Shown in pieces: positions 7,569-54,273 of a stretch of DNA of 64,000 nucleotides. The stretch lies in contig OX597820.1 in the NCBI GenBank assembly GCA_951406725.2, positions 115,630,001 to 115,694,000 on the forward strand, in the 5' to 3' direction. The notes beneath the pieces were generated by a model, which saw only the letters and a list, made by a program, of their open reading frames with translations, ran no database searches and was not told the origin of the DNA. Within the stretch, counting starts at the first letter, position 1. Every line of letters starts with the position of its first letter. Origin of the DNA: Octopus vulgaris. Taxonomy: Eukaryota. The position numbers and the translations under genes are program-made.

Positions 7569-7822
7569 ATTCTGTTGTGTTTGGGGAGAGTCATTCTCTT
7601 TTAGTGCCTTATTATTGAACACACTCACCGCTAAAATTTCCACATTTCTTTTTTTATTTTTTAAAAAATTTTCATTGCATCTTGCAACCTTTTCAATAGT
7701 ATTGCAAGACACAAGGATAATTTTAGAAAAATAAATAAATAAAAGAGTGGAAGTTTTGCCAGTGAGTGCGTTAAATTATAAGGCACCAAAAGAGAATGAC
7801 TCTACCCAGACACAACAGAATA
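7569..7822. repeat. Imperfect fold-back element, arms about 120 bp
   Basis: tattctgttgtgtttggggagagtcattctctttt... mirrors ...aaaagagaatgactctacccagacacaacagaata. Confidence 0.85.
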
Positions 7823-9889
7823 TGCTTCAACACACGAACTCACATAAAGAATCTTGCAAACCAAATCCAAAAATGAAATTATAATTAATAATTTTCACTT
7901 AATTATAATTAATAATTTTCACTTAATTCAATTAATACTCAATTGACAAAATACAGTTGTTTTAACATTTCTGTCTTAGTGGATTATTATTAACATTGAC
8001 AACCATTGTTCATTCCTAATATTATATTGATTGTCTCTGTTCTGTCTCATATATCCTATGTGTCTATCTAGCATATCAGTTGGAACATAAAATATCTTCT
8101 TTAAATTTTCATATATTGCCAAGCTGGCTGCCTCCTTTTATTTCCATTCCATTGCTACATTAGTCTGTCATTTCACTCACATTACCATTTCACTTGCTTC
8201 TACTTAATCCAGCCATATTACAGATATCTTCCAACCAGCTATGATCCATCATCATCATCATCATAGTCTATTTTTCTATGTTGGGATGGATTCTGCAAGT
8301 CTCATACTATCTCACCACTTGTTAAGGTCCATTTTCATTCGGGACACACAGCAGCAGCAAAAACTCAATATTTGTTACGTATTTTTCTTTCTGGTGTGTG
8401 GAGAGAGGGGTTACAGTTTTTACAAGTTCCCATTCCATTTATCGGCCGTTTTACAATATGGATTGGGTACACTTTATCCTGCTTCTATGTTGTGTCTAAA
8501 TTAATGGCATTGAAAGCTAATGCATATTGTTATTCCAGTATAAATATTTTATGCCTATGTTAGTTCTACTATCTTGTAACCCCTATCTCTTATTGTAACT
8601 GTCTGTTTGTGATCTTACTGGAATGCTCTGTTGATATTCCTGTCTGTTTTAATTTTCATTCTTTTCAATAATTAGTGAGGAAGAGGAGTGCTTTCACATT
8701 GGTGAGATTGAAGTGGTTGTTGCTGGATTTTGAACTAAATTTCAGCACTTGTTGAATATGTGAATTTCCTCAAATCTCACGTCACTATCTTATAAAAAGG
8801 AAAGACACATTGAACAATGAAGTCCCTATATGGATAAAACAATGGGATGGTTAGGGCTCGAAAGCCATGTGTCACACATGGATCTGCTTAGTGAGGATCG
8901 GCCTGGGGTTAAACAACAACATAGACGGGAAGAGTATTGCAGAGAACTGCAACTCTGGGAAAGAATGATTAGAATATTTAATGCAAGGCCTTGCAGGTGG
9001 TGCACATTGGGATGACTAAAAGGAAGAGACTGGTGCCTCGGGTGAGGCTTCAGTAGATTGGGTTATGGGTTCTTGGTTCAGAGGAATTGTTACAGAAAAG
9101 ATGAAGAAACAATGTCTTTGAGTAAATTTTAGCTCAGTTTGTTAAATGGCTTTTGGATGTTGTTTTGGGTATTTCTGTGTACAGCAGTTGCATAATTCCA
9201 GAAATGGGGTCTAGAGAGATCCCTAACAACACACTGCACTGGAGTCATCTACCAGGAAACTTCTGATCAAAGAGATGAGATGAATTCTATTCATAGGTGT
9301 AAAACTTGAGCATGTAATGATGTGGGAGATAACATTACTTTTGCTGATGCTCACAGAAGCAAGAGTTAACTTGTGTCATCGAAGAGTAAGTCTTTAGTAT
9401 GTCTTTTACAGGAAATTTTATGAGCGGTTTCTGAAAAGGGAAGAGAGAAAGTATATTCAGATGTTTGAAATGAAAGTGATAGGATATTAGTTGTCAGCCA
9501 AACATGTTTGCCTTTAGAATTGCACACCATTATCAAGTCAGTGCATTCTGATAGCTACCTATAGAATGGGAAAAACTATATAAAGAAAAATAAATAAATA
9601 AAAAAAATTAGTGCTCAATAACGGAGAGTAATGAAAGAGACCTTGTCAGGGATGAGTGCTTTGTTAGGTTGGAGTGATTTGGAGAAACTTGAAACTCAGC
9701 AACTCTCAAGTAATTTAACTGTATTGTTGTTAGTTTGTTTGGCTCTAAATATTCTGTTGCTCCCTTGTTACTCTTTCTGCTGGAATTATATTATTTTGTT
9801 ACAACTCTTGTTGCATTACAGTTCTATATTTAAGAGATGAGGAATTATTTACATTTGACAGATATTTGTCCTCAATCTTGTTTGTTGTT

Positions 9890-9935
9890 AGCACAACGTT
9901 TCGGCTTATACACCCTCCAGCTTTCATCAGGTGTC
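9890..9935 (-). ncRNA. Decayed hammerhead motif on the mirror arm
   Basis: GACAC-CUGAUGA-A-AGCUG...AAGCC-GAAA-CGUU^GUGCU, with mismatches in stems I and II. Confidence 0.55.
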
Positions 9936-10181
9936 TTGGGGAAATTTCGAACCTGGGTTCTCATTCCTAAGGTATTTTTCAATGTTGTTGTTATTATTCA
10001 GGTCACTGCCTGGAATCGAACTCAGATTAGTAGCCCACGCTCTTAACCACTATGCCATATGCCTGTGGGCATATGGCATAGTGGTTAAGAGCGTGGGCTA
10101 CTGATTCCAAGTTCGATTCCAAGCAGTGACCTGAATAATGATAATAATAATAATAATATGAAGTAGACTGACATGTAATTT

Positions 10182-10224
10182 TTGAACCTGTGGAAGGCAC
10201 GCTAGATGCCGAAATATCGTTCAA
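10182..10224 (+). ncRNA. Hammerhead-like motif with a U6 variant core
   Basis: UUGAAC-CUGUGGA-A-GGCA(cgcuaga)UGCC-GAAA-UAUC^GUUCAA: perfect 6-bp stem I and 4-bp stem II. Confidence 0.6.
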
Positions 10225-10340
10225 CTAATTTCACATGACAACTATGGCAATCTTCTATCTATTTCTATAATAATAATAATAATAATAATAATATTGAAAG
10301 ATACCTGAAGAATGAGAACCCAGGTTCAAAATTTCCCCTA

Positions 10341-10386
10341 GACACCTGATGAAGGCTGGAGGGGATATCAGCTGAAACGTTGTGTT
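10341..10386 (+). ncRNA. Minimal type-I hammerhead ribozyme motif
   Basis: GACAC-CUGAUGA-A-GGCUG(gaggggauau)CAGCU-GAAA-CGUU^GUGUU: stem I GACAC/GUGUU, 5-bp stem II, loopless palindromic stem III (AACGUU). Confidence 0.7.
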
Positions 10387-10586
10387 AACAACAAACAAGA
10401 TGAGGACAATCCTTGTTAAACCTTGTGCTGTAGCACTACTTGTAGTACCATCCTGGTACTCCTTATAAACCCACATACACTCTCATATTTTCCCTGTGCA
10501 CTAATCTATATTGCTGTATTACTACTCCATGTAAACCTACCTATGCTCTTTGTAAACTGTTGCCATGCTACTCCTTTTCTTTTCAG

Positions 10587-10721
10587 CTATTTGGTTTATT
10601 TGATGACATTTACGATGACGACGACGAAGATTATGATGATAATGATTTTTCTGATTCAAAGTCTGACTCTATGCTACTAAGTTTACGTGTTAACTCTACT
10701 GAGTATGACTTTGAGTATGAG
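10587..10721 (+). CDS. RASSF2/4: Probable acidic cassette exon of the RASSF gene
   Basis: Pyrimidine tract ttttcttttcag|CTA...GAG|gtacc, 135 nt, phase 0-0, open in the gene frame: LFGLFDDIYDDDDEDYDDNDFSDSKSDSMLLSLRVNSTEYDFEYE. No homology recognised. Confidence 0.55.
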
Positions 10722-11217
10722 GTACCCTTAGACAGTAGTCACTTCTAAGCACTACCACTCTTCACTTTGTGCACTCTTAGAGATAGTTCATAACGCATCA
10801 CACACACACACACACACATTTGATTAGTCTGTGGCCTTTTAGTGAAGTGCACATCAGTTTAATTTACCTTGATCTACAGTTTACTTTCATAGCAGTTCAG
10901 ATGAAGTTCTTTCTATTACAATATTTGTTTAATCTTTCTTGTGACTCCTACAATTTATCTTCCTGATGATGAGTTTAACATAGAATAGTTTATTCTACAT
11001 CAGTCATCAGACTCTGGTCTGTAATCTGAAACCAGACAGAATTCACTTTTGGTTTATAGGATGGAGCAAGATGATTGATAGCCCTGGTTTAAAGTTGGAT
11101 AATGTCAGACAATTCAGTTAACTGTTTCCAACAGCTAAGTGAAGTGAGGCCATTTGCATGGAGAAACAACAAATTAGTGGATGTAATGAGCATTAAAAAT
11201 GTAATGAAAACTAATTA

Positions 11218-11595
11218 CAGGAGTGGCTGTGTGGTAAGTAGCTTGCTTACCAACCACATGGTCCTGGGTTCAGTCCCACTGCGTAGCACCTTGGGCAAGT
11301 GTCTTCTATTATAGCCTCAGGCCGACCAAAGCCTTGTGAGTGGATTTGGTAGACGGAAACTGAAGGAAGCCCATCATGTATATATATGTGTATGTTCCCC
11401 CCCCCCCAACATCGCTTGACAACCGATGCTGGTGTGTTTTCATCCCCATAACTTAGCTGTTCGGCAAAAGAGACCGATAGAATAAGTACTAGGCTTACAA
11501 AGAATAAGTCCTGAGGTCAATGTGCTCAACTAAAGGCAGTGCTCCAGCATGGCCGCAGTCAACATGACTGAAACAAGTAAAAGAATAAAAGAATA
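11218..11595 (+). mobile_element. tRNA-derived SINE family A (other copies about 5705-6063(-), 16600-16945(-), 36372-36752(-), 37953-38394(+), 46377-46740(+), 47866-48252(-), 56470-57045(+), 59470-59826(-), 60045-60410(+))
   Basis: Head ggagtggctgtgtggtaag...ggttcagtccc (A/B-box-like), internal (TA/TG)n, tail ccagcatggccgcagtc..atgactgaaacaagtaaaag. Confidence 0.9.
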
Positions 11596-12359
11596 CTGTG
11601 AAGAAAAGATAATAGTATCTCACTCCATTCATGTTGACAAGGAAGGGACATAACTTTGGAATTGTTTCAGTCTTATTAGGCCTCCTTAGTCACATTAGGC
11701 CTCCTTAGTCACATTCAGACTTTACTGTACTTTCTGAAGAAACAATAGAATATAGATGTACAATATATTGTTCAAGAGAATATTACATTAAAATCTCCTT
11801 CATGGACATTTTTCACAATAAAAACTATGATTAGCCAAAAGAAACTGTCTTATTTCTGTTGCTAGCAATTTGAACTAACTTACAAAATTAAGAATAATTA
11901 AAATGGTAACTGAAACTTTTAAACTAATTACAAATTTGATTAGTTTTAAGATACTGAAATATAAACTTTATTGGAATACATTTGGATGTGTGAAAATGTC
12001 CTTGAATTATTTCACTTGATACTTCCAAAGTTGTATTCAGTTGTCCTTGATATTTATAGCAGAAGATGATATATAATACGGTGATATGATATAACATCAT
12101 AATGTATGTTATTTTGTAGTATAATATGATGCTGAATTTTATTTGTCTTTCTGTAATTATTTCACATCTGGATGTCATCTTAACATGAAATACATTATCT
12201 GTACTACCTTGAGTTTCTGAGGGAAAAATTTAACATTTAATTAATCTTCATTTTAATTGTTTGATTTTAGCTTTTCTTTTATACTCTTCAGTATAAACCC
12301 ATTCCTTTTTTACAAATGCGTGTGTTTAATCATTTGGGGGGAAACTAACACTATTTTTA

Positions 12360-12610
12360 AGTAACGTTCATAGCTACTTCAACATGGCCGTTCCATTCAA
12401 ATGTACTTAATTATGATTATTTAACCCCAAGAGGACATCTCCTCTAGCTGGTTAACAATGCACAGCTGCATCCAATACATTGCAAGCAATACATCAGATG
12501 CAGCTGTGCATCCTTAACCAGCCAGATGAGATGTCCTCTTGGGGTTAAATAATCGCAGTAAAGTCTTTTTGGATGGAACAGCCATGTTGAACTGACTACA
12601 AATACTCGCT
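12360..12610. repeat. Imperfect fold-back element
   Basis: ttcaacatggc...gattatttaaccccaagaggacatctc...gcacagctgcatc mirrors gatgcagctgtgc...gagatgtcctcttggggttaaataatc...gccatgttgaa. Confidence 0.85.
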
Positions 12611-13229
12611 GGTACAACTACTGCGATCATCGCTTAGAGAGATTTTAGAACTAGCTTTTCAGCTTGTAATACTATTACTAATAGCAATCTGTGTATCATA
12701 CCTAATGCAGATACATCGTATAAAGCCTAATTAATTGCAACCTATGCTGGTGCCACATAATAAGTACCTCTGCTGGTGTCACAATAAAAAAAATGGTATC
12801 CATGCTGGTACCATATAAAATGCACCCAGTACACTCTGCAAAGTGGTCGGCATTAGGAAGGGCTTCCAACCATAGAAACCATACCAAAACAGACAATTGG
12901 GGTCTAATGCAGCTCTCCAGCTTGTCAGTTCCTGTCAAACCATCCAACCCATACCAGCATGGAAAATGGACATTAAATGATGACCACATGTATATCAACA
13001 GAGGACCAAAATTGTCCAGCAGCTGCAGTGAATATGCTAGATGTGCATCTCTTCCTTCTTTGGTTTTGCCATTTGCAAGTAGCCAGTGGCAACAAGACAA
13101 AATCTGTCCTGACTGATATAGGAAAACAAACTGTGATTAATGTTGCTAATTCTGATGAAGTAACTCTAAAATTGAAGACATCTTAACCATCACCATCGTT
13201 TCATTTATTTATTTTCTTTGTTTTAAAGA

Positions 13230-13684
13230 AGAACACCATCCGAGCATGATCGTTGCCAGAGCAGCCAACTGACTTCCATGCCGGTGGCACGTAAAAAGCA
13301 CCATACGAGTGTGATCGTTATCAGCATTGCCTTACTGGCACATGTGCTGGTGGCACGTGAAAAAAAACATTCGAGTGAGGCCATTGCCAGTGCCACTGGA
13401 CTGGCTCCTGTGCAGGCGACACGTAAAAAAACACCATTTGAGCATGGCCATTGCCAGTACTGCCTGACTGGCTCTCATGCCGGTGGCACGTAAAAGCACC
13501 CACTACACTCTCTGAGTGGTTGGCATTAGGAAGGGCATCCAGCTGTAGAAACTCTGCCAGATCAAGATTGGAGCCTGGTGCAGCCATCCAGTTCTCCAGT
13601 TCACAGTCAAATTGTCCAACCCATGCTAGCATGGAAAGCAGACGTTAAACGACGATGATGATAATGATGATGATGATGATGATT
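13230..13684 (+). mobile_element. RTE 3'-end copy (others near 2070-2265, 18430-18597, 20820-21105, 32940-33300, 35500-35722, 37260-37470, 40533-40930(-), 41990-42355, 43133-43502, 50055-50240(-), 53640-53835, 55210-55507)
   Basis: Shares aaaagcacccactacactc...ggaagggcatccagctgtagaaac...cccatgctagcatggaaagc..acgttaaacga(tga)n with the 3' UTR at 63760-63992. Confidence 0.88.
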
Positions 13685-14030
13685 GTTAAATGGATTTTAT
13701 AAGAAGTTTTACTGCTTTTGCTAACAAGTTAAGCAACTTCATATATCATGGACGGCAACTCTTTGACATATGCCAGCCATGACCTACAAGATTTTAGGTC
13801 AAACTTGCAGTATCGTATTGTAAAACCTGTTTGATTTGCAGAGATCTAAAACTGTAAATTAAATTCATTTCAACTGGTTTAGTAGCTCTGAATGTAGTTT
13901 CCGTAGTTTGTTTTCCTTCTGAAACATTCACAGCATGCTTATTGTTCCACCACTTGCAAACATTTATTGTTATTATTACATAAATTCCTTTATTTTTGTT
14001 ATCATTTTCTATTATAATGATATGCATAAC

Positions 14031-14398
14031 ATTATAGTGTATACACAAATGTAGAATGGTGCTGGTTTTAGGATATTGTCTCAGAGGAACTTCTCTTTTG
14101 AAACTTTAGATGTAAAAACACAGCATACTCTAAATAATGTTAGAGGGCCATCAGACACTGGTGTTTTGGCTTCATTTTGATAGGCACTCCTGAGGAACAG
14201 AAGTCCCTAGCCAGATCCAAATGACTGGGGATGTCTGTCACTGAAGAGGTGAAATCAAGCTGAAGCACCAGTGTCTGGTGGTCCTCTAACATTATTCAGA
14301 GTACGCTAGGTTTTTAATACATGAAGTTTCTAAAGAGAAGTTTCTCGGAGACAGAATCCTACAGCTAGAACCATTCTACATTTATGTATACATTATAA
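14031..14398. repeat. Imperfect fold-back element, arms about 170 bp
   Basis: ttatagtgtatacacaaatgtagaatgg...aataatgttagagggccatcagacactggtg mirrors caccagtgtctggtggtcctctaacattatt...ccattctacatttatgtatacattataa. Confidence 0.85.
14235..14281 (+). ncRNA. Decayed hammerhead motif near the centre of a fold-back element
   Basis: CUGUCA-CUGAAGA-GG...CU-GAAG-CAC(ca)GUGUC^UGGUGG. The opposite arm reads AAAACAC at this position, so the arm consensus is GAAACAC. Confidence 0.45.
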
Positions 14399-15634
14399 AT
14401 GATTTACACACATTGTTATTTTAAGCTAATGCTATAACTAGTGTGTATATTGATTTCCTTTATTTTTATCATACATATGTTTATCCTAAGTTATTTTTGC
14501 TTTATTTTTTCCTAAATAGTTATTTACTGATTGATTGGAGAAATTCATTTTATTTAAATGTCAAAATCAGATTTGTTTGTCAATGATATCCAACAATTCC
14601 AATTATTTTGCCAAATATTTCTTTCAGTTAGATATCAAGTTTGTGTTGTTGTAATTATAACTTTGTAAATGTCAGTTGTGTATTTGGATTTGTCTTTCCC
14701 AAATGAGATATTGACTGATAAAGTTGCAAGATATTCTACAAAGCTAATAATTCACTCCATTCTTAGTATATGTTATCCTTCGGGTAATTTTTGGTCAATC
14801 ACATGAAGAACCACACAGAGTAAGAAACTTGAAGTTCATTACTTATTCCATCACTACTCAAAGAAATGAACCAGTTTTGTAATTTTTGAGTTATAAATGG
14901 TAGAAAACAAAAACAAATGAGAAACTTGGAATTGCAACAGAGGAAAACTTTGCTTTTGATTACCTTCATACCAGGTTTATACCTGGAATTATTGGGCCAC
15001 TTGGATATGTAACTGACTGCCTCATTACCAGTCTTGAGAAATTAAGGTTCTCAAAACCAGGCAGAAGAAAGCTAATTAGATTACAGATACAAGTCACCAG
15101 TGGAACTATCAAAATATATAAGGCTTTCTAAAAGTTTAGAATATAAATACAAATACATATCTTGACATGCAACTATACATAAGAGTATACATATATAAAA
15201 TGAAACCTACAGATTTGAATATGCACTGACTCAAAACACTTATACACATCCACATACGCAAGTACTCTGTTGTGGAAATTCCAATGACGAAGCCTTGAAT
15301 TTAGGTTAGAAACCAGCTTTTTTTTTTGCTTTTTTTTTTTTTCTTGCAGTTGGTAAGAAATAGAAATAAAACTAAAGAACACACAACGCATGCACACGTG
15401 TGTTGTGATTTCAGTGTATCTTGTCGATCTGATACATTTGCAACAAGACAGCTGCTTTAAATTAGTCATGTGCTCTGTTGTATGTTTTTGTCTGTGTTCT
15501 CTACAACAATTTGGAAAAATATAAACAAACATAGAAGGGATACATAGTGTTTGATGTATAGAGCTTATCTAATAATAATAATAATAATAATAATGATATA
15601 TTGTAAAATCTGTTTTCTTTGTTTCTTTGTACAG

Positions 15635-15817
15635 GCAGAACAATCTCCACAACCAACTCTCCCCAAATATGGCATGGATGACAGTGTAATCATACCTAAT
15701 TTAGATGGTGTTGTCCGACGTCGAAATATTCGCAAATCCAACACAGTTGCCTACAGAGCTGACCGACCAAGCAAGTGGAAACGAGCTTCTATAAACGGAC
15801 ATATTTACAATTATGAT
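15635..15817 (+). CDS. RASSF2/4: RASSF exon leading into the RA domain
   Basis: gtacag|GCA...GAT|gtaaga, 183 nt. Ends KWKRASINGHIYNYD, matching RASSF2 RRHRFSINGHFYNH. Confidence 0.93.
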
Positions 15818-15859
15818 GTAAGATTCAGTTTCCTTTCATAGAAATTTCATTTTATGCAC

Positions 15860-16200
15860 AAGGTAAAGAAATCAAAATATCAGCACTTAGTCAATGAAGC
15901 CCTTATCAAGGGCTGGCATGTGAGCCCCGTTCCTTATTGAAGTTGGCTGTTGTGGCTCTCCATCTATGTCAGTGCACTATTTCCTGCAGAAGATAGTTCT
16001 ACAACTCAGACAACTGGAGAAAATCCTCAAAGAAATAAGTGCAGCAGATGTAACTAGCTCAAGAGACTGCGAGTAGAACCCATCCGTGGGTTAAGACTAG
16101 CTCAGTCCTTGTCGCCCTGCTCAGGTGGCGCATACAGGCCAAGGGGCAAAACACTTGTGACTCTGAGGTACCTACTGATGATATGGAAGGGCTTCCAGCT
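15860..16200 (+). mobile_element. Decayed HERO-like (REL endonuclease) non-LTR 3' fragment
   Basis: KKSKYQHLVNEALIKGWHV / IEVGCCG...LKEISAA resembles the K.KY..LV....GW...IEVGCRG C-terminus of HERO-type elements; frameshifted. Confidence 0.6.
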
Positions 16201-17871
16201 TTGCAATGGATTTAGAAGAGCTTGCAAAACCTCTGAGCAACTTGTGCAGTTTCTGTGTGGGGCAAAGCATCACCTAAATTCCTTTCAGTACCAACCTGCC
16301 TGAGACTGCCCCTGGGTTTTTGATGCAAACTTCATTGTTTAAAATGCATCAACTTAAAATATTCATCAAAATTCCATGTTCATTTATGTTCCAAACATCA
16401 GCTTAATAATGACATAAATGACTCATTAAACTTTTCCTTATTTTCAAAACTAATTGAAATCAAGGTGATGGATTTCTATAGAAATATGGTAGCAAAAGGG
16501 TTAAATTCTTTTCTTGTGTATATTTTCTTTCTCCCCTATTTCTTCACCTTCTGATGTAATTCAAAAGAAATATTGTTGACAACATCATTATGCTTTTATT
16601 TTTTTCTTTATTTTATCCAATCATTGGACTGCAGCCATGCTGGAGCATCAGGTTTTAGGGGAATAAATTGACCCCAGTTCTTACTTTTTAAGCCTGGTGC
16701 TTATTCTATTGGTCTTTTTTTGCCAAACTACTAAGTTACGGGGACATAAACAATAAAAAAGAAACCTGAGTTGACAAATGATGTGGGGTGACAGACACAC
16801 AGATGGTCTTCCATACAGTTTCCCTCTGTCACTCACAAGGCATTGGTCAATCTCTGGCTATAATAGAAGACACTTGCCCTCACTGCTGTACAGTGGGACT
16901 GAACCTGAAACCACATGGTAACAAAGCAAGCTTCTTAACTACGTCCGCACTTCATTATTTCTTCACTTCTTTACTTTTGTGCCATTGTTGTAAAATGGTA
17001 GAAGGCGGCAAATCAATTCTGCAATGCAGGTTTAATTCCTGGTTTGAGGAATCCTGTACATCATTGATTTCTGTTGAAAGTCAATAACTTGGAGAGTGTT
17101 GTGTGGACTTAGAGCAATTTGACTTACAGCTCTACGCAGGGAGGTAAAGTCTTTAGTCTTGATGTAATGACCCATTAAGAGACATGTGGTGTTGACAGTA
17201 GAGCAAGCAAGCTGCATTGCACTGTTTACTTGCATTCCTTCACATTCTGAGTTCAAATCCCAGCTAGGTTAACAGTACTTTACATTCCTCAGGAGTCGAT
17301 AAAATCAAATCCAAACAAGTAGTGGGGTTGGTGTCATCAATTATACCATTACTTTGATTCTTTTGTCTATATTGGAAAGCATGCAGTGCTCCTGCATGGC
17401 CACAGCTTCTGGCTGAAACCAATAATAGTATAAACGATAATAGTATTTGTACCCCAGCATCACTTTGATGACATGTGCTGCTCTTCTCACTCAATAATAA
17501 TAAAGACTAATGTGTATGTATATTTGATTAATAAATAAACAGTAAATATACCCCCACCACCACCACCACAGTACTAGCTGTTCTTGATATGAATCCTTTG
17601 TTATAATTCATAGCATTTTTTAAAAAAATTATTATTTGATCTACACTTATTGCTGTGTGTGTGTCGGGATAGCAACCTCATCATAAATATTCTGTTATCT
17701 ATTGCTGATTGCTAGAGTTATGAATTACTAGTAAGGGGGAAGAAAGAATGCCTTTCCTTGGCCTCAAGTCAGTTCTCCTTTACATTGTTATTGATCTTGT
17801 GTGATTTCTGTTAAGTTAGTAGAAACTGTGTCATGATTATATCTTTTTTTCTTTTTTTCTCTTTCTACCAG

Positions 17872-17973
17872 ACTCGTGTTTTCACTCCAGTGATTGGCAG
17901 CTGTACTAGTGTTACAGTGAACAGCACAATGACTGTACCACTGGTTATAAAAACATTGCTTGAGAAATTCAAG
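17872..17973 (+). CDS. RASSF2/4: RASSF exon, RA domain
   Basis: taccag|ACT...AAG|gttagt, 102 nt. TRVFTPVIGSCTSVTVNSTMTVPLVIKTLLEKFK matches [34 protein letters not shown]. Confidence 0.95.
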
Positions 17974-17999
17974 GTTAGTATCATCACCACCACCACAAC

Positions 18000-18148
<149 letters not shown>

Positions 18149-19975: not shown

Positions 19976-20485
19976 CCATAAATCCTCGAGTATAGTCCAC
20001 CCTTGAGTATAATACGCAGGGGGTTGTATTTCTGAAAAACCTAAACCTTGTGTATAATATGCACCTCTTCTCTAACTTGAGTTGTGCGTAATTAAGCCAG
20101 CAGCACCTAGTCGAACAAACACTTCCGAGCAAGTGTAATACAATAATGGTGATGTTCTTAACTGTTATATGGGAATGTAAATATGTTTGCAAATTATTTT
20201 TGTTACGTTATTCTGTGATCTGAATACTTTTATTTTAATAAATGTTGCTTACTGCAAGTTATGGATGATTCTTTTATGACTTCATTGCTTTCAGGCTTAG
20301 CTTAAGGTATTTTTGCGCCCAACATCACAAAATGCATCTGAATAAACATTGCTGGACAGCAAATAGAGACTCGGACATTGCTTAGAAGAAATTTTTCATT
20401 TTTAACCTCATATATAGTACGCACTAAGGAATTTTTACCTTTAAATTTTGGGAACAAAATGCGGATTATAGTCAAGGATTTACGG
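19976..20485. mobile_element. pogo/Tigger-like MITE
   Basis: TA|ccataaatcctcgagtatagtccac ... gcggattatagtcaaggatttacgg|TA. Confidence 0.7.
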
Positions 20486-41430: not shown

Positions 41431-41551
41431 CACAGCCCCATCCTAGAGCATGACACAGCCCCATCCTAGTGTATGACACAGCCCCATCCTAGAGCATGAC
41501 AGCCCCATCCTAGTGAACGACACAGCCCCATCCTAGATTATGTTGCAGCCC
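41431..41551. repeat. Minisatellite with a 23-bp unit
   Basis: About 5 copies of cacagccccatcctagagcatga. Confidence 0.92.
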
Positions 41552-43065: not shown

Positions 43066-43645
43066 TTGGGTTGGTGCATAATTATTGCAGCGTTTTCTCA
43101 ACAAAAACAATAACAAAATGTAACAAAAACATAGCCAATCCACTTATGCATACCCTTCCTTCTTGGGATACAAAACTCTACTTGTGAAGACCTGTTGAGG
43201 CAAGTGAGAATCGAAATCGATCAACATCAATGGAAATTGCAGCTGTGATACCAGTGCCGGTGGCACGTAAGAGAACCATCCGTTCATGGCCGTTGCCAGC
43301 CCCGTCTGGCACCTGTGCCGGTGGCACATAAAAAGCACCCACTACCCTCACAGAGTGGTTGGCGTTAGGAAGGGCATCCAGTCGTAGAAACATTGCCAGA
43401 TCAGACTGGGCCTGGTGCAGCCTTCTGGCTTCCCAGACCCCAGTTGAACCGTCCAACCCATGCTAGCATGGAAAGCGGACGCTAAACGATGATGATGATG
43501 ATATTCACCATCTACTTCAATTAATGCTTCCTATTAGCTTGGCAGACGGTCAGACCGTCATTTAAAGATGGTTTTGTTAAATATTATTGTTTTTGTTGAA
43601 TAAAATTTGTCGGAAACAAGCTGCAATTATTATTCACCAACCCAA
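43066..43645. mobile_element. Mariner-derived MITE with a nested RTE 3' end
   Basis: TA|ttgggttggtgcataattattgcagc ... gctgcaattattattcaccaacccaa|TA. The TIR resembles Hsmar1-type TTAGGTTGGTGCAAAAGTAATTGCGG. Confidence 0.75.
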
Positions 43646-43653
43646 TATTATTC

Positions 43654-43718
<65 letters not shown>

Positions 43719-43721
<3 letters not shown>

Positions 43722-44825
43722 TCATCATCATCGTTTAATGGTTTGAGTGAGGACTAGCGAACCAGATGGCTGCACCAGGCTCCAGTCTGATCTGGCAGAG
43801 TTTCTACAGCTGGATGCCCTTCCTAACACCAACCACTCTGAGAGTGTAGTGAGTGCTTTTACGTGCCATCGGCATGAGGGCCAGTCAGGCGGCACTGGCA
43901 ACGGCTACACTCAAATGGTGTTTTTACGTGCCACCTGCACAGGAGCCAGTCCAGCGGCACTGGCAAATGACTTCGCTCACATGCTTTTTTTTTCCCGTGC
44001 CACCTGCACAAGTGCCAGCAAGGCGATGCTGGTAACAATCACGCTCAAATGATGCTTTTCACGTGCCACCGGCATGGAAGTCAGTTTGCTGCTCTGGCAA
44101 CGATCACGCTCGGATGGTGCTCTTAGCGCTCCACTAGCAGGGATGCCAGTCATCAAATTTCTATCACAAGTTCCTTCCACAGTTAGAGATTGGCACTTCT
44201 TAACACAGCTCTCCTTGTCCATACACATCATATGACCATTACCAATGCAGTCGTCTCTCTTACACACAACATCTGATGCCTCTTATGCCCAACTCTTCTC
44301 TCAAGACACTTACACTCTGTCATACATGCACACTGACATTGCATATCAAGCGAAGCATACCAGCTTCATTTCTTTCAAGCCTGTGCATATCCTCAGCGGT
44401 CACAGCCCATGTTTTGCTACCGTGTAGCAAAGCTGTCCACACACAGGCTTCATACTGTTTGCCTTTTACCCTGAGGGAGAGGCCCTTAGTTACGAACAGA
44501 AACAGGAGCTCTCTGAACTTTGCTCAGCCTATTCTTATTCTTGCAGCTCTCAGAGCATCCACCTCTGCTACTGACTCAGTCACCGACATAACAGAAGCTA
44601 CCAACTACCTCTAGCTTACGCTCCTGGCAGTTGATGCAGTCTATTTTCTATGCATTTTCAGTGTTTATTGCATCTGTGCATCTTCCACAGACAAAAACTA
44701 TTTTCCCAGTTAACATTCCTCTGATATTGCTGCACCTTTTATGTGTCCATAGTTTACACCAGGTTTGTACCGAGTTTGTACCTACACCTTTTCTACAGAT
44801 TGAAAAGGGCCACCAACCTGAAGGG
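43719..44825 (-). mobile_element. Truncated, internally deleted copy of the same RTE family
   Basis: Reverse-strand peptides SICRKGVGTNS..CKLWTHKRCS..TGKIVFVCGRC and CMDKESCVKKCQSLTVEG match the 62-63 kb ORF; the same 3' UTR and (GAT)n tail follow. Confidence 0.88.
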
Positions 44826-46047
44826 GTTTGTGATTTGTCTAGCAATTTGTGTGTGTGTGTGTCTCTGTTTCTACTCCAACCCCAACGGCTTGACAACTGG
44901 TGTATTTGTATTTATGTTCCCATAACTTAGCAGTTCAGTGAAAGAAACCAACAGAATAAGTACAAGACTTAAAAAAAAACAAAAAAAAAAACAAGTACTG
45001 GGGGCATTGATTCATTTGAGTAAAAATCATTCAAGGCAGTGCCCCAGCATGGCCACAGTCTAATAACTGAAACAAGCAAAAAAGAAAGCAAATCTTTCCT
45101 TCAACAGGGCCCAGATGTTTGAGCATCCAAATGATCACGACCAAGCTGGAGCTTTCCCAATTGAGTTCCTGAATTCTCTACAGCCATCTGAAAAAGGGGG
45201 CCCCAATCATGCTGCTAGAGAACCTGGATCCACCTCGCCTGTGCAAAGGCACCAGGCTGGTGGTGAAAGCAATGCAACCCCATGTCTTCAGATTAGGAAA
45301 AGCAGAAAGTGAACTGAGATGATTTTGTAAAGTTAATATAAAGAATGTCTCATTGTCTTACTAATTAAAACTCACTCGTTATCTCTGGTAATGATGAGAA
45401 AAAGAGAAAGTTAATATGACAAGGATCTGATTAACAGGTTAAATTGAATTGAGGTTGAGCTTTTTTGGAAGAAGAGAGGACAAACACAAACAAGTACAAA
45501 GTTCCAGAAAACAGCCGTTAAAAGGAAGACAGAAGGACGAGAGAAAAAGGCCATTAAATACTGTGAAGTGATTAGGATGAGAGGAAGGAAGGATGAGAGG
45601 AAGGTTCGTCTGTTACGGCATAAATTTATATTTCTTTATTGCCCACAAGGGGCTAAACACAGAGGGGACAAACAAGGACAGACAAACGGACTAAGTCGAT
45701 TACATCGACCCCAGTGCGTGACTGGTACTTAATTTATCGACCCTGAAAGAATGAAAGGCAAAATCGACCTCGGCTGAAGTTGAACTCGGAACGTAATGAC
45801 AGACAAAATATGGCTACGCATTTCGCCCGGCGTGCTAACGTTTCTGCCAGCTTGCCGCCTTATTGTGGCATAAATTTAGTACATTTAGAAGGACAGAGAC
45901 TGTTATTGTAGAATTAAGTATATATATATAGTAAAAGCAATTAAGATTCAAGTGAGTTCTGTTGAATTCACATGAATGCGGTACTTAACTTAGATGCACC
46001 AGAAATCTATATGGTATTAACCATAAAATAATGTGGGGTGATTATAA

Positions 46048-46189
46048 ACAAGAAAAAGCAACAAGAATGGATTAGTTTTTCAGTACAATTGTTTCATACG
46101 AAGAACAGCTTTATTAAAAGCTGCAAAAAGCTGTTCTTCGTATGAAACAATTGTACTGAAAAACTAATCCATTCTTGTTGCTTTTTTCT

Positions 46190-46192
<3 letters not shown>
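46048..46192. repeat. Near-perfect hairpin, arms about 65 bp
   Basis: gcaacaagaatggattagtttttcagtacaattgtttcatacgaagaacagcttt and its reverse complement, separated by a short loop. Confidence 0.92.
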
Positions 46193-46230
<38 letters not shown>

Positions 46231-46775
46231 CATAGCAGATGAGATCACAGTTAGATGATGAGGCAGCTGGCATGAAGTAACAGTTGACTAGCATCATTGT
46301 TTCTTGTGCAATTTTAAATTTAAACAATATGGGTGATTTGATAAATTTTACTTTTCTTCCTATCATATTGTAAATGAACAGGTGTGGCTGTGTGGTAAGA
46401 AGTTTGCTTCACAACCACATGGTTTTGGGTTCAGTCCCATCCCATAGCACCTCAGTCAAGTATCTTCTGCAATAGCCGCAAGTTGACCAAAACCCTTGTG
46501 AGTGAATTTGGTAGAAGGAAACTGAAAGAATCCTGTCGTATGCATGTGTGTTTTCAGTTGACAACCAGAGTTGGTTTGTTTACATTTCTGTAACTTAACA
46601 GTTCTACAAAACAAGTTGAGAGAATAAGGACCAAACTGAAGAAGTCTGTGCGGGAGTCAATTTGTTCGACTAAAACCCTTCAAAGCAGTGCCCCAGTATG
46701 GCCACAGTCCAATAACTGAAACCAAGTAAAAGGTTAAAGATAAACAAATGCATAAAACAAAACAAAAAGGCTTAC

Positions 46776-46961
46776 CATCAGGGAAAATATCAAATTTGCA
46801 TGTGCCATAGAAGTACGGTAAGAAGTCCTTCAAGCGTCTGAGGATGGGATCTGATTCAGCCTTTTCATCAAAGACAGTCTGGTAAAAATTTAGTTCACGA
46901 CGACCCCGTGGTGGGAGTTGGATGAGTTTCAGTAAAGTCTTATCCTTTGTCTGAAGGAAAG
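46776..46961 (-). CDS. IPMK: IPMK coding exon 2
   Basis: ttgtag|CT...GATG|gtaag, 186 nt, phase 1-1. LLKLIQLPPRGRRELNFYQTVF...LKDFLPYFYG matches IPMK VLKQLQPPPRGPRELEFY...LPKYYG. Confidence 0.94.
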
Positions 46962-47278
46962 CTACAAAAGGAATACACAACATGAAAAAGACACATTTTA
47001 TACATTGGTGCATGTGTGTGTGTGTGTGTGTGTATATATTCATACCTGGATTCATTGCCCCCATTAAACGTTTAACACCCACTTTTCCATATCCTGCACC
47101 GATCAAATAGAATTTGTTGAGGCATGTTTTTTTTTTTTTTTATGGCTGGATGCTTTGCCTGCCACCAACCCTCAGCTGTCTTCTCCAAGTAAGGTAAGAT
47201 TTTCCCAAAGATAGACAGTTTTCACAGTAGACAAGAAATGAACAGCATTGCTTGTATGACATCTAGACAAGGGTACAT

Positions 47279-47321
<43 letters not shown>

Positions 47322-48599
47322 TTCTGTCTAGTAATTCCACTTGCAAGGTTTTGGTCAGTTTATAACTAAAATAGAAGACAATTGCCCAATGTGCCAAGTT
47401 GTGGGACTGAACCCAAGACCACATGGTTGAGAAGTAAGCCTTTTGACCACATAACTACACCTGAAGATATATATACATACAAACGTACATATCTACATAC
47501 ATCTGTATGTGTGTGTACACATATATTAATGTTTGCTTTTATGCTGAGCTATAAAAACAAATTTACATTAAACTGAAAGATCACTCTATAGTTTTTGTTG
47601 AGTATTTATTATACTTTTACAAGAAGAGTGCTTACAGTGACTTCAAAATTTTGGCCTGCTGACCTTCATTAGACTGTTATACATTTAAGTTCATCTTGGC
47701 TGTATGTAATCCTTAGTAAAGTTTATTTTTGCCTGGAGTGAGTAAAGGTATGTTCAATGATAATTAGTTGTAAATTCTGATAGAAAGATATTATAGAAGG
47801 TTTTCTTTTGTTTAAAGTTGGAGATGTATTATTGTTCAGAGTTCAATCATGAATCTCCTAATCTTTCTTTTACTTGTTTCAGTCACTAGATTGCAGTCAT
47901 GCTGGGGCACTGCTTTGAAGGGTTTTAGTCAAATATTTTGAACCCAGTACTTATTCTTTTTTAAGTTTGGTACTCATTCTATCAGTCTCTTCAGCTGAAC
48001 AACTAAGTTACAGGAATATAAACAAACCAGTACCAATTTTCAAACAGTGGTAGGAGACAAACACAAACACACACATCTATATACATATACATGACAAGTT
48101 TCTTTCAGTTTCCAACTACCAAATCCACTCATAGAGCTTTAATTGGCCACGGGCTTAAGTAGAAGACACTTGCCCCAGGTCCCATGCAGTGGGACTGAAC
48201 CCTGAACCATATGGTTGGGAAGTAAACTTCTTACCACAGAGCCACACCTGCAAAACTTTGTAATCAGGTGTGTCTATTTATGCATGTCAGTTTCCAGTCT
48301 TAGGTTGTTTTTAGGGTTCACAAAAGAAAATGAAGAGATGAAACCTTTAATTGGCCAGTATGTAACTAGATTTAATTGTTGTTGATGTTATTTGAATACT
48401 ATTTTGGAGATTTAACACATCTGTTTTGGGATGATGGAGGTTACTGTTCAGAGTTCAGTCAAGCATGTGAAACTAAAGGCTAAAACCAAGGCCATACATA
48501 CAACTGAAGCTTCAGAATCTTTCCATCTTACTCTCTAAATGGAAGCTGTCTCGTAAGTAATACTGCTTTTAGCACAGCTCTATACCATCTGCTACATCC

Positions 48600-48900
48600 A
48601 CATACACAGGGTCTATAGCAAACCAATTCAAGTCACAATACAACCAACACACAAATGTTTTCAACTCAAACAGGAAAAAATGACACCTCACTATCAAAAC
48701 ATATATGGACACTTAAAACCAAAGGATAAACCATTTAGTATTAGTTGGAAAATACTGTCAAAAGCACAACCATAGCAAGGAAATAACAAACCCTTCCAAT
48801 GGATCCTACTACATTCTCGAATTTAAGAATCAAATACTGAACTGTGAATTAGTCCCTTCCAGCAAACAAAATTCACAAAACACTAAGATATTTCAAGCTA
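48600..48900 (+). mobile_element. Decayed Penelope-like GIY-YIG endonuclease fragment
   Basis: YTGSIANQFKSQYNQHTNVF / TSLSKHIWTLK / KDKPFSISWKILSKAQP across frameshifts, matching the YIG..FK.R..H / LSKHIW.LK / I.W.I pattern of PLE endonucleases. Confidence 0.7.
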
Positions 48901-49339
48901 ATAGTTTTCAAATAAACACACAAATAAATAGACTTAAATATATCCTATACATATATATAAATACACACACATAGAATTATCCAAAAACACATAATATAAT
49001 ATGTTATAAATGCCATTAGAAATACTCAAACTTAAAACTGAATAGAAGAAATATAATGACGTCATCCACAATCTTTACTTTCCTAAAACTCAAAGCTTAA
49101 ATTTTCTACATAATAATAAAGTATCAACAATAAGAAAATGCTAATTAGGAATCTTCTGACCAATTAATTTTTCCACCCACTTAAATTCTTTTGTGAACCC
49201 TTAAAATACAGAATATCAAATGTCTACACAAAAAAACCAGCGTGACCTAAACCTGACACATCTAAATAGAACAACTACAAGTGTCCTCTGCATTTAAACA
49301 AAATGTGCAACCAAATAAAAAGAAAATAATTCAACTTAC

Positions 49340-49448
49340 GTATTACGTTGTTCTTTTGATTCACAAGGTGCCCGGCTACTTGGTGATCCAAAAGTTTTGT
49401 TCCAGGTGGCAGCTGACGGAAATTGTTGTCGGACTGAGTCGTAGCCAT
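49340..49448 (-). CDS. IPMK: IPMK first coding exon
   Basis: ATG at 49448. MATTQSDNNFRQLPPGTKLLDHQVAGHLVNQKNNVI contains the inositol phosphate kinase HQVAGH motif. Donor C|gtaagt; upstream acceptor ttgtag| at 49523. Confidence 0.92.
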
Positions 49449-52400: not shown

Positions 52401-54235
52401 CAGACTTGGTTAAAAAGAGACGATGAGCGATGGCTAGAAGAATATTGAGCTTTATTTGATAACCAGCTGATCTAGCAAGTGGGGCCTCATATCAGTGAGA
52501 GGGGCTGGTGCGTATTGATGCCGTCGAGAGGTAGGCCCCGAAATGGCGTGCATTCTCTCCTGATGACCCCATACACTTGCTGGGTTCCAGTATGCTGGGT
52601 TTTTGACTGGTAGCACTTGCATGTGCAAGTTGTTTGCAAGATATCTAGAACATTGAAACAGTGTATATGGTTTTAATATTTACACACCTGTACATCTTTT
52701 ATATTTTTATATAACTAGAATGCCAGTAAGAGATAGTTTGAGCTACTACGAATAGAAGTCAAATTTTACTAAAAGAACACCCAATAATATTAAAAAGAAA
52801 GAGAGGAAATCAATAATGAAAATCTAGAATTGGACTGAACGACTCGACAATTTTTATTTTAAGCTGTTCTCACATTTCTAAACAGACTAACAACTATCAA
52901 TGTAGATAGATAATACAGACTGCTACCGCAGTTTTGCCTATTGTTGACTCACTCTGCATACCTATAAATAGGTTCCATGAGTAAGTACATCTTACGACTG
53001 TAAAGAGCAGCCACATTGTTTAATACCTGAGTAAATTGTGAGCTGATAGTCTCCCCAAGGATGCAGAAAAAAGCTCAAAGACTCAGCCATGGTTCTGAGT
53101 CTTCTGAATGTTTCAGTCAATCTTACTATTGATTTGGTTTTCAACAGTGTTGGTCGGGTGGAAGAGACTGTATCACAGATCTTTACAGACCCTCCAACAC
53201 TGGTGAGATTGATATAGTTGATGTCTGTAGGAAAAACATGAGTAGGAATGGAATTCTAGAAGGGGTTTTGGGGAAGAAAGATTGGATTTAGTGGTAGGTG
53301 GGGAGGGGAAGAGAGATAGATGATGTATAAAGTGGCTTTATGGGAGGGGTTTGGAACTATTTAATCCAAAGAAACAGAAGTAGGTGTAGTAGTGAGCAGA
53401 ATGAGGAGACTGAGAATCTGTGGCCTGGAGATTGTAGGATGCTTATGAGTGGGTCTTAGGAAAAACCTTAACACATCTTTACCACCATCTTCTCCCTTTT
53501 TCCAGTTGGGGTAACCATGTATCTCCCCTACAGCAAGACACCTATTTCTATCTCTCTGTCATCACTTGGAATAAAGCCACCATCCTCAACTCTACTCCAC
53601 CCCTTTCAGCTGAGGGGTCCTGTCACGCAAATCACTTGGTGACCTCACTGGTGCTGGTGCTACATGAAAAGCACCCAGTCCACTCTGTAAAGTGGCTGAT
53701 GCTAGGAAGGACATCCAGCCACAGAACCTATAACAAAATAGATCTTGGAGTTTGGCACAATTCTCTAGCTTGCCAACTCCAGTCAAACCATCTAACCCAT
53801 GCCAGCATGGAAAATGGACATTAAATGATGATAACAATGGATGGCTTTGTTTTTAATGTGGCCCACGATGTCCGTGTGTTGAATAGCAATAACAGTCCAG
53901 ATGTGGAAACAATACTCCATTACTAAAGTTTGGAAGAGAGTCACAATTGATCAAAGTTGAAGTATCCGTAGGTACAGGAGTGGTGTGTTAATCTTTGCAG
54001 TTTATGAAATGTGAAGGTGGAATCACCGGAAAGATTGCAAGGTCCAGCAATCTTTGTAGGGACTTTGAGGAGTTTAACTGCACATTAACCAATGAAAGTA
54101 TAATATAAGTTTGGATATATATATATATATATATATAACGGGAAGCTTTATGAAAATAAACAAAAGACGAAGGCAGGTGGAAAACAAACGAACAATTGTA
54201 TTAGTACGGCGCTCGGGAAATATAAATAAAACAAG

Positions 54236-54273
54236 TCTTTAACGTTTCGAGCCTACGCTCTTCAACAGAAAGA
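54236..54273 (-). ncRNA. Hammerhead-like motif (U6 core), same family as 35886 (element about 54135-54330)
   Basis: UCUUU-CUGUUGA-A-GAGC(guag)GCUC-GAAA-CGUU^AAAGA. Confidence 0.58.

What the first reader, a model, noticed from the sequence alone, without database searches (positions are those of the whole stretch)
7569..54273. A system of small, mostly fold-back elements built around minimal hammerhead ribozymes
Seen: hammerhead-shaped motifs (stem I - CUGANGA or variant - extra purine - stem II - GAAA - tiny or palindromic stem III - NUH - stem I) at 7663-7699(-), 9890-9935(-), 10182-10224, 10341-10386, 14235-14281, 24097-24141, 35886-35921, 37185-37228 and 54236-54273(-). Their stems differ in sequence but still pair, giving about six families. 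Four elements show a head-to-head layout in which sequence downstream of the ribozyme is mirrored upstream. Known: Penelope-like elements (PLEs) carry minimal type-I hammerheads with loopless stem III that cleave as dimers, and often insert with inverted pLTR copies. Inference: a dense population of non-autonomous, ribozyme-bearing PLE derivatives sits in the introns of these genes and would be missed by standard annotation.
Basis: partly seen in the sequence, partly recalled or inferred. Interest (0 to 1): 0.82.

Follow-up and report, generated by a model that had tools for sequence, protein, structure and literature searches.

The report
Octopus SINE carrying Penelope-type hammerhead ribozyme
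This stretch of octopus DNA holds, mostly in introns, old copies of six repeat families that each carry a tiny predicted self-cutting RNA motif of the kind known from Penelope-like jumping genes, and one very abundant family begins with a tRNA-like promoter, so it is likely a SINE that is copied by Penelope-type enzymes rather than by the usual LINE enzymes.

Summary
The motifs are real. Six of nine pass a mismatch-tolerant minimal-hammerhead scan (0.025 per shuffle); 7663 is a U3-A8 core variant (0 in 200 shuffles); 14235 and 37185 are decayed. They form six families, and eight of nine lie in introns of Octopus RASSF2-like and IPMK-like genes. Minimal hammerheads on scattered, truncated Penelope-like (PLE) ends are known across animals, so the general picture is not new. 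Only 4 of 8 insertions are fold-backs, and in three of them the predicted hairpin buries the motif. A perfect 10-bp target duplication flanks the whole unit at 37 kb. Public contigs show ~60,000-80,000-fold summed depth over single-copy DNA, a fixed 3' end and head-to-head junctions at other loci. Most likely it is a tRNA-headed SINE mobilised by PLE enzymes, comparable to Schistosoma Sm-alpha and animal retrozymes but dispersed and with a PLE-type minimal ribozyme. No autonomous PLE partner was found, and cleavage and Pol III transcription are untested.

The parts
7570..7878 (.). Family F fold-back insertion: arms about 7570-7697 and 7697-7823 (80% identical), one-sided extension 7824-7878, target duplication 7558-7569 / 7879-7890 (11 of 12 letters)
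   Evidence: family 3' end from loose ends at 7879 in 205 contigs of X1
7663..7699 (-). Minimal type I hammerhead with U3-A8 core variant; stem I decayed in this copy
   Evidence: 1 vs 0 in 200 shuffles; loose ends at 7665 in X1 and X8; variant described in PMC4209133
9818..10064 (-). Family A copy 1: tRNA-like head (A box 10057-10047, B box), (AAY)n, spacer, hammerhead, tail
   Evidence: 3' end from loose ends at 9817 in all four runs
9890..9935 (-). Family A minimal hammerhead (CUGAUGA, extra A, GAAA-CG-UU); one mismatch each in stems I and II
10067..10409 (+). Family A copy 2, head-to-head with copy 1 (2 nt apart); A box 10074-10084; lacks the last ~50-65 nt of the tail; interrupted by family B
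10159..10268 (+). Family B, ~110-nt insertion inside the (AAT)n tract of family A copy 2
10182..10224 (+). Family B minimal hammerhead, A6U core (CUGUGGA), 6-bp stem I, GAAA-UA-UC
10341..10386 (+). Family A minimal hammerhead, best-preserved copy; predicted cut after 10381
14032..14398 (.). Family E fold-back (arms 76% identical) with decayed hammerheads at 14235-14281(+) and 14148-14200(-)
23985..24210 (.). Family C: inverted 3' fragment 23985-24092(-) with a 75-nt one-sided extension, then hammerhead 24097-24141(+) with short stem III, then mirrored 24177-24210
35813..36008 (+). Family D copy 1 with A6U-core hammerhead 35886-35921
37047..37514 (+). Family A copy 3: head (A box 37054-37064), (AAT)n, broken hammerhead 37185-37228, tail split by a later insertion 37258-37476; perfect 10-bp target duplication 37037-37046 / 37515-37524
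54138..54380 (-). Family D copy 2 between (TA)n tracts, with A6U-core hammerhead 54236-54273
296..28789 (+). Host gene, RASSF2-like (exons at 296-475, alternative 10584-10724, 15632-15823, 17866-17979, 21372-21431, 21653-21826, 25354-25431, 26736-26864, 28706-28789); six motifs lie in its introns
34536..49448 (-). Host gene, IPMK-like; motifs 35886 and 37185 lie antisense in the intron 35381-38938; 54236 lies 4.8 kb upstream of the start codon

Best explanation
These are old insertions of six octopus repeat families that each carry a minimal hammerhead motif near the 3' end and were likely pasted in by the enzymes of Penelope-like elements (PLEs), and the most abundant one, family A, is a ~250-nt unit with a tRNA-like promoter head that likely works as a PLE-dependent SINE. 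Proposed steps. (1) Pol III would start at the head's first base; the A box starts at position 8 in all three copies (shown), transcription is inferred. (2) The hammerhead plus tail would be a captured PLE pseudo-LTR that binds the PLE protein (inferred). (3) The protein would nick AT-rich DNA and start reverse transcription at one of two sites near the RNA's end; fixed 3' ends and one-sided extensions are shown, the cause is inferred from Anolis Poseidon biochemistry. (4) Self-priming or template switching would add an inverted, often 5'-truncated copy head-to-head; the layout is shown here and at other loci, the cause is inferred. (5) With almost no stem III, a single motif is predicted to be inactive and would cut only as a dimer or with protein help; in the host pre-mRNA the fold-back is predicted to bury it, so these copies are probably passive. 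Families B-F are probably 5'-truncated PLE ends.
For: Motif excess over shuffles. Fit to the published PLE minimal consensus: extra nucleotide before stem II in 8 of 9, palindromic 15.2-16.2, G at 10.1 in 8 of 9. Family D keeps 33 of 36 motif positions against 119 of 167 elsewhere (p=0.006), with changes only at N7, loop II and N17. A+B box pairs: 4 hits, 3 of them family A heads, against 0.13 in 30 shuffles; spacing matches the SINE promoter in PMC8969392 once the 9-nt piece shown by loose ends at 10023 is counted. A 10 of 10 target duplication encloses head, ribozyme and tail at 37 kb (1 of 3000 random pairs). In four runs of four coded organisms the body bin has 62,000-82,000 times and the head bin 10,000-19,000 times the single-copy depth; the 3' end is fixed at 9817 (206-330 contigs per run); (AAT)n joins head and body; 11 of the 15 joints listed (805 in all) are head-to-head junctions, 4 of them onto the head's start. 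Both local arms share a deletion the family lacks, so they come from one event or were homogenised. Inverted pLTRs, optional tail and 8-10-bp duplications are PLE features (PMC3846280; PMC8557442); tail from two RT starts, ATT cutting and a protein-assisted, dispensable ribozyme are from PMC11167929.
Against: No PLE ORF was found: none among 15 window frames scanned with Pfam, and the family A frame hit only 8 short ORFs without RT or GIY-YIG domains. The one-sided extensions are 49-75 nt, longer than the 30-40 nt reported. Only 2 of 10 elements tested have a significant target duplication. ARAGORN and Rfam do not call the head a tRNA, and the lack of T4 runs is not significant (52% of shuffles also lack one). 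The head bin has only about a fifth of the body's depth, so many body copies may lack it. Listed joints have short sides (20-47 nt), and 6 of the 11 have unknown letters between. No compensatory changes within a family can be shown from 2-3 copies. G10.1-C11.1 is intact in only 4 of 9 copies.
Confidence: 0.68

Rival explanations
1. Family A is an ordinary LINE-dependent tRNA SINE, or an Sm-alpha/retrozyme-like element spreading through circular RNA, and the inversions come from LINE twin priming or hairpin self-priming.
For: SINEs normally use LINEs (PMC8969392). An APE-type LINE and its 3' derivatives are abundant in the window. No PLE ORF was found. Joints 10408/10409 to 10341 show 75-nt tandem ribozyme units at some loci (2 of 12 rows listed), and 7 related ORFs from unnamed ENA contigs are 40-43-aa tandem repeats.
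Against: The 3' end has no poly(A) or simple-repeat tail and does not match the window's LINE end. The inverted piece duplicates the 3' end, whereas twin priming inverts the 5' part without duplicating it (recalled). The ribozyme is of the minimal PLE type, not the canonical retrozyme type. All window copies are dispersed or inverted.
Confidence: 0.14
2. Head and body are two separate elements: a short tRNA SINE ending in (AAT)n, and a PLE end that targets such tracts, so their joining is repeated coincidence and not one mobile unit.
For: Family B did insert into that very tract. A PLE enzyme cuts ATT motifs. Body depth is about five times head depth.
Against: One 10-bp duplication encloses both parts. 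All 3 heads and all 3 bodies in the window are linked. The head-to-head pair holds two complete units, and joints at other loci put inverted body pieces directly on the head's start.
Confidence: 0.09
3. The fold-backs are MITEs (DNA transposon derivatives) and the hammerhead shapes are incidental.
For: Long inverted arms; other fold-backs in the window have no hammerhead.
Against: The same family occurs as a single, non-inverted copy (37047-37514). Junction points vary between loci, arms are asymmetric, and the motifs far exceed chance.
Confidence: 0.04
4. Some sense-strand motifs are domesticated ribozymes that regulate the RASSF2-like pre-mRNA, for example the alternative exon at 10584.
For: Four motifs are sense in its introns; 10182 and 10341 lie 200-400 nt before that exon; family B's stems I and II stay free in the predicted fold.
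Against: All are repeat copies with decay in core or stems. 10341 is predicted to pair with the mirror arm at 43 of 46 positions and 14235 at 42 of 47. No same-strand identical partner lies nearby for a dimer.
Confidence: 0.05

Closest known systems
Minimal type I hammerheads of metazoan Penelope-like elements (Cervera and de la Pena 2014, PMC4209133)
   Same: Core, extra nucleotide before stem II, palindromic loopless stem III, many divergent families per genome, mostly single motifs, some inverted pairs 100-700 bp apart, and the U3-A8 variant of S. mansoni.
   Different: Octopus is not in the supplement file searched. Families B and D have U at core position 6, which is outside that consensus and had 0 occurrences in that file. 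No tRNA-headed carrier is described in the sections read.
Sm-alpha / Sj-alpha SINE-like elements of Schistosoma (PMC2770079, PMC6765202)
   Same: A tRNA-derived, Pol III-type head followed by a type I hammerhead in a short non-coding repeat with more than 10,000 copies.
   Different: Sm-alpha is described as often tandem, with a canonical hammerhead that frees monomers. Family A is dispersed, has a minimal PLE-type motif and shows PLE-type inverted insertion and target duplication. No sequence comparison was possible.
Animal non-LTR retrozymes (PMC7229834; bioRxiv 10.64898/2026.07.22.740005)
   Same: Short non-coding hammerhead elements proposed to derive from PLE pseudo-LTRs and to borrow PLE enzymes; PMC8969392 says they can be seen as a kind of SINE.
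   Different: Retrozymes are defined by tandem units with a hammerhead in each and by circular RNAs. No Pol III head is mentioned in the passages searched. Window copies are not tandem.
EN-containing PLE insertions (Adineta Penelope, PMC3846280; Anolis Poseidon, PMC11167929; Naiad/Neptune, PMC8557442)
   Same: Head-to-head inverted ends, one-sided tail, 8-10-bp duplications, AT-rich or (TA)n targets, and mobilisation in trans through pLTR sequence alone.
   Different: No ORF here; extensions are 49-75 nt against 30-40; octopus Naiads are listed without a canonical hammerhead.
Octopus tRNA SINEs of Ohshima and Okada 1994
   Same: tRNA-derived retroposons in the same genus (title seen in a reference list).
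   Different: Paper not read and sequences not compared, so family A could be one of them or an entry of Repbase, Dfam or the 2026 O. vulgaris library (893 unclassified recent SINE families).

Membership tests
PLE-type minimal hammerhead | Core CUGANGA (or U3-A8) ... GAAA ... UH with stems I and II | tested here: met
   6 of 9 pass (3 of these with A6U), 1 more is U3-A8, 2 are decayed
PLE-type minimal hammerhead | Unpaired base before stem II, G10.1-C11.1, palindromic 15.2-16.2 | tested here: met
   extra base in 8 of 9; G10.1 in 8 of 9 (G-C 4, G-U 3, G-G 1); palindromic or short stem III in 8 of 9
PLE-type minimal hammerhead | Compensatory stem changes among copies of a family | tested here: inconclusive
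   only 2-3 copies per family; family D changes avoid stems; the letter table listed no repeat positions
PLE-type minimal hammerhead | Self-cleavage as dimer or with protein | not testable with these tools
   only contigs, no raw RNA reads; cofold energies only
Penelope-like element | ORF with telomerase-like RT and GIY-YIG endonuclease | tested here: not met
   none in 15 window frames or among hits of the family A frame; no genome held. These are not full PLEs; a partner elsewhere is untested
Penelope-like element | Inverted, often 5'-truncated copy head-to-head at the 5' end | tested here: met
   4 of 8 insertions; 11 of 15 listed joints
Penelope-like element | 30-40-bp tail on one end only | tested here: inconclusive
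   one-sided extensions of 49, 55 and 75 nt in 3 of 4 fold-backs
Penelope-like element | Partial tandem (direct pseudo-LTR) | tested here: inconclusive
   none in the window; 75-nt tandem joints at other loci; tandem units implied by P0061-P0067
tRNA-derived SINE (family A) | A box and B box 30-35 nt apart near the 5' end | tested here: met
   A box at position 8 in 3 of 3 copies; spacing 34 in copy 3, 25-26 in copies 1-2 which share a deletion
tRNA-derived SINE (family A) | Short, dispersed, high-copy unit inserted whole with a target duplication | tested here: met
   246-249 nt; 10-bp duplication; summed depth
tRNA-derived SINE (family A) | Head recognisable as a given tRNA | tested here: inconclusive
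   ARAGORN 0, Rfam no tRNA match; likeness to tRNA-Arg is recalled only
tRNA-derived SINE (family A) | LINE-derived 3' end or poly(A)/simple-repeat tail | tested here: not met
   no such tail and no match to the window's LINE end; other LINEs could not be compared
tRNA-derived SINE (family A) | Transcription by RNA polymerase III | not testable with these tools
   absence of T4 runs is compatible but not significant
Non-LTR retrozyme | Tandem units each with a hammerhead | tested here: not met
   window copies are single or inverted; tandem joints are a small part of family depth
Non-LTR retrozyme | Abundant circular RNA | not testable with these tools
   no raw RNA reads offered
Sm-alpha family | Sequence homology to Sm-alpha | not tested
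   no Sm-alpha sequence available from a tool

The most novel reading that the evidence does not exclude
One of the major repeats of octopus genomes is a true tRNA-headed, Pol III SINE that captured a Penelope pseudo-LTR with its minimal hammerhead and spread to tens of thousands of dispersed sites with Penelope reverse transcriptase and GIY-YIG endonuclease: a SINE-PLE partnership beside the textbook SINE-LINE one. Its ~120-nt 3' part would define the minimal cis signal for Penelope insertion, and its head-to-head copies would seed introns with long double-stranded RNA.
Probability: 0.55. Interest if true: 0.72.

Novelty: new variant of a known kind. Interest (0 to 1): 0.54.

Why it matters
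The finding as first written (minimal hammerheads on Penelope-like ends) is known across animals; octopus adds a host and two core variants. Family A matters more. SINEs are defined as passengers of LINEs, and PLE-borne non-autonomous elements have been proposed mainly for tandem retrozymes. A dispersed, tRNA-headed family with a very high copy number would make PLE mobilisation in trans directly testable with a ~250-nt RNA. It would allow a test of whether the ribozyme is kept for cleavage or as a protein-binding fold, and it would reclassify part of the SINE-rich octopus repeat landscape.

Tried and rejected
No whole genome is held, so no genome-wide descriptor search, consensus building or PLE-ORF linkage was possible. 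Rfam: no hammerhead or tRNA match in the window or two sub-regions; its hits are hairpin look-alikes below gathering scores. ARAGORN: 0. Exact family A and D motifs: 0 in viral contigs and 0 in metagenome contigs. P0062 found no related locus in prokaryote genomes or viral contigs. The family A open frame found no long protein and only short spurious ORFs. Sequencing runs: no RNA holder listed, and all 24 runs are contigs. No empty (pre-insertion) site among the rows shown; only one record (X16, 9033-9852) bridges an element end by the tool's 31-letter rule, others fall 2-6 letters short. 10459-10800 has little cover in X1; no conclusion drawn. Target duplications were not significant for 8 of 10 elements. 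Lack of T4 runs in family A was not significant. Cofold dimers are 2.5-7.5 kcal/mol more stable than two monomers but mostly not in the active hammerhead fold, so they were not used. I first rejected 7663 and reversed this after the U3-A8 test. Loose-scan hits at 49077 and 46576 are at chance level. Family A and D motifs were absent from the one supplement file held for PMC8557442. Lunse et al. 2017 is not held. Earlier scan notes by sequence and place gave nothing.
Full report
HOST AND SETTING. The window is animal DNA. An IPMK-like exon is 100% identical to a protein named from Octopus vulgaris, and a RASSF2-like exon is 98% identical to O. vulgaris proteins. Mapping these proteins back puts RASSF2-like exons between 296 and 28789 on +, with an alternative exon at 10584-10724 in an O. 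sinensis isoform, and IPMK-like exons between 49448 and 34536 on -. Six motifs lie in RASSF2-like introns (four sense, two antisense), two lie antisense in one IPMK-like intron, and 54236 is 4.8 kb upstream of the IPMK start codon. No whole genome is held.

OBSERVATION. All nine motifs are present. A strict descriptor finds 4 of 9 against 0.04 per shuffle (50 shuffles). A mismatch-tolerant score finds 6 of 9 against 0.025 (40 shuffles). The 7663 motif has the U3-A8 core described for S. mansoni in PMC4209133 and is the only such hit, with none in 200 shuffles. Its stem I is broken in this copy, but the mirror arm and the family's loose ends (130 contigs in X1, 66 in X8) give the pairing strand. 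14235 and its mirror depart from the canonical core at different places, as expected for decay from an intact ancestor. 37185 has lost the cleavage triplet. Rfam detects none of the motifs. Blast within the window gives six families in eight insertions, four of them fold-backs. The two family D copies agree at 33 of 36 motif positions but only 119 of 167 outside (p=0.006), and the three differences fall at N7, loop II and N17. Compensatory change within a family cannot be shown from two or three copies.

Each of the three copies starts with a tRNA-like head, followed by (AAT)n, a 50-nt spacer, the hammerhead and a tail. A scan for A plus B boxes gives 4 hits in the window, three of them these heads, against 0.13 in 30 shuffles (box patterns recalled, matching the consensus in PMC8969392). 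The A box starts at position 8 of the element in all three copies. ARAGORN and Rfam do not call the head a tRNA. Copy 3 (37047-37514) is enclosed by a perfect 10-bp direct repeat, matched by 1 of 3000 random boundary pairs. I saw this repeat before fixing the boundaries, but both boundaries are set independently, by the head's first base and by the family 3' end. Copies 1 and 2 stand head-to-head 2 nt apart and share an 8-9-nt deletion that the family lacks (loose ends at 10023 in X4 and X16). Family B (110 nt) later entered the (AAT)n tract of copy 2, and a LINE 3' derivative entered copy 3.

OTHER LOCI. Contigs of four runs, coded as organisms A, B, D and E, were laid on 7300-10800 at 80% likeness. 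Summed depth is not a copy number. Still, the family A body bin (9874-9990) has 62,000-82,000 times the depth of single-copy flank, the head bin 10,000-19,000 times, the family F bins 4,000-54,000 times and the family B bin at most about 370 times. Loose ends with random continuation mark a fixed 3' end at 9817 in all four runs and at 7879 in X1 (24 of 3762 rows shown). (AAT)n continues from both the body and the head. Of 15 joints listed (805 in all), 11 join an inverted piece head-to-head to a plus-strand copy at varying points, 4 of them onto the head's start; 5 of the 11 have known linking letters, and all sides are short (20-47 nt). Two of 12 rows in the linking-letter table show 75-nt tandem ribozyme units. 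One X16 record runs from flank that differs at about 6.5% of letters into the element end, so this insertion is older than that split; no empty site was among the rows shown. Arm divergence per arm is 0.065 (A), 0.11 (F) and 0.14 (E); on the scale of PMC13282606 (0.065 about 18 Myr, a SINE burst) these are old copies, though conversion between arms would bias this. A 30-aa frame through family A hit 8 short ORFs: a 51-aa O. bimaculoides prediction that reads through the whole body, and 7 from unnamed ENA contigs built of 40-43-aa tandem units. None has an RT or GIY-YIG domain. Their DNA could not be fetched, so a hammerhead in them is inferred from the peptide only.

MECHANISM. Shown: the motifs, the unit structure, fixed 3' ends 50-150 nt behind the predicted cut, head-to-head junctions, one-sided extensions of 49-75 nt in 3 of 4 fold-backs, target duplications in 2 of 10 elements tested, and insertion in (AAT)n or (TA)n for B and one D copy. 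Inferred: a PLE protein binds the ribozyme-and-tail region, nicks AT-rich DNA, starts reverse transcription at one of two internal sites and adds an inverted copy. This rests on PMC11167929 (two RT starts define the tail, ATT cutting, ribozyme protein-assisted and not needed in vitro) and PMC3846280 (head-to-head pLTRs, optional tail, 8-10-bp duplications, pLTR sufficient in trans). For family A, Pol III transcription from the head is inferred. In the host pre-mRNA, 9810-10420 is predicted to form one long hairpin (z = -34.8) that pairs 43 of 46 bases of motif 10341 with the mirror arm; 14235 (42 of 47) and 7663 (22 of 37) behave alike. The fold-back is therefore a trace of insertion that masks the ribozyme, and these copies are probably passive.

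AGAINST. No autonomous PLE was linked to any family. Extensions are longer than published tails. The head is under-represented in depth, which fits 5' truncation, the local deletion or separate origins. Eight of ten duplication tests were negative. Cleavage, transcription and covariation are untested.

COMPARISON. Scattered minimal hammerheads in many families per genome, read as truncated PLEs, are already described (PMC4209133), so families B-F are new members of a known kind. Their A6U core is outside that paper's consensus; Lunse et al. 2017 may cover it but is not held (known to me by recall and from its citation in PMC6765202). Family A works like Schistosoma Sm-alpha, a tRNA-derived SINE with a hammerhead, and like animal retrozymes, proposed to be PLE-derived. 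It fails the tandem-unit test of retrozymes and the LINE-tail test of ordinary SINEs, and it is not a full PLE. I found no paper on hammerheads in octopus repeats or on a dispersed tRNA-headed SINE with a PLE-type ribozyme in searches, which cover only open-licence PubMed Central and bioRxiv. Repbase, Dfam, SINEBase, the O. vulgaris repeat library and Ohshima and Okada 1994 (title only) could not be seen and may already list the family.

PAPERS SEEN. PMC4209133: parts 1-3 of 4, supplement file 2 part 2 of 3 and a term search of the files held (file 1 not searched). bioRxiv 2026.07.22.740005: part 1 of 5 and passages; supplements closed and may bear on novelty. PMC13282606: parts 1-2 of 3. PMC11167929: parts 1-2 of 4. 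PMC6765202: passages and section 11 part 2. PMC8557442: passages and a term search of one supplement file. PMC3846280, PMC7229834, PMC2770079, PMC8969392, PMC8967140, PMC6155905, PMC10886601 and bioRxiv 596502: passages only.

VERDICT. Observation confirmed, interpretation partly supported. The general system is known; family A is a new variant, most likely a PLE-mobilised tRNA SINE (0.55). Interest 0.54.

Noticed in passing
window 55950-56401: Near-perfect fold-back: 226-nt arms, 99% complementary, no spacer, no hammerhead found. Either a very recent inverted duplication or an assembly artefact.
   Followed up: partly
window 12378-12591: Fold-back (83%) whose outer ends resemble the 3' extension of the family C element at 23985-24058; probably the same kind of end, truncated before the ribozyme.
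   Followed up: partly
window 46043-46197: Fold-back (91%) running into (TA)n on one side, without a hammerhead; (TA)n is the listed target of octopus Naiad PLEs.
   Followed up: partly
window 57067-57494, 34336-34392 and 39395-39423: Further fold-backs without a detected hammerhead.
   Followed up: no
window 60473-63989 (+): Frameshifted APE-endonuclease/RT LINE with a PHD-like finger (RTE-like, recalled); its 3' end occurs more than ten times in the window, once inside family A copy 3.
   Followed up: partly
window 10584-10724 (+): Acidic alternative exon of the RASSF2-like gene, present in an O. sinensis isoform, 175 nt behind the family A hairpin.
   Followed up: no
window 9964-9818 (-) and 37157-37514 (+): A frame from an ATG through the ribozyme to the element's end is open in an O. 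bimaculoides copy (51-aa prediction P0060); it could be the relic start of a parent PLE ORF or chance.
   Followed up: yes
window 37166-37180 (+) and equivalents: A second B-box-like word lies just upstream of the family A ribozyme, perhaps an older promoter relic.
   Followed up: no
window 38837 (-): A different tRNA-like head with A and B boxes, not linked to a hammerhead.
   Followed up: no
P0061-P0067: ORFs from unnamed ENA contigs (65-358 kb) made of 40-43-aa tandem units related to family A; probably tandem ribozyme repeats of about 120-130 nt in another animal.
   Followed up: partly
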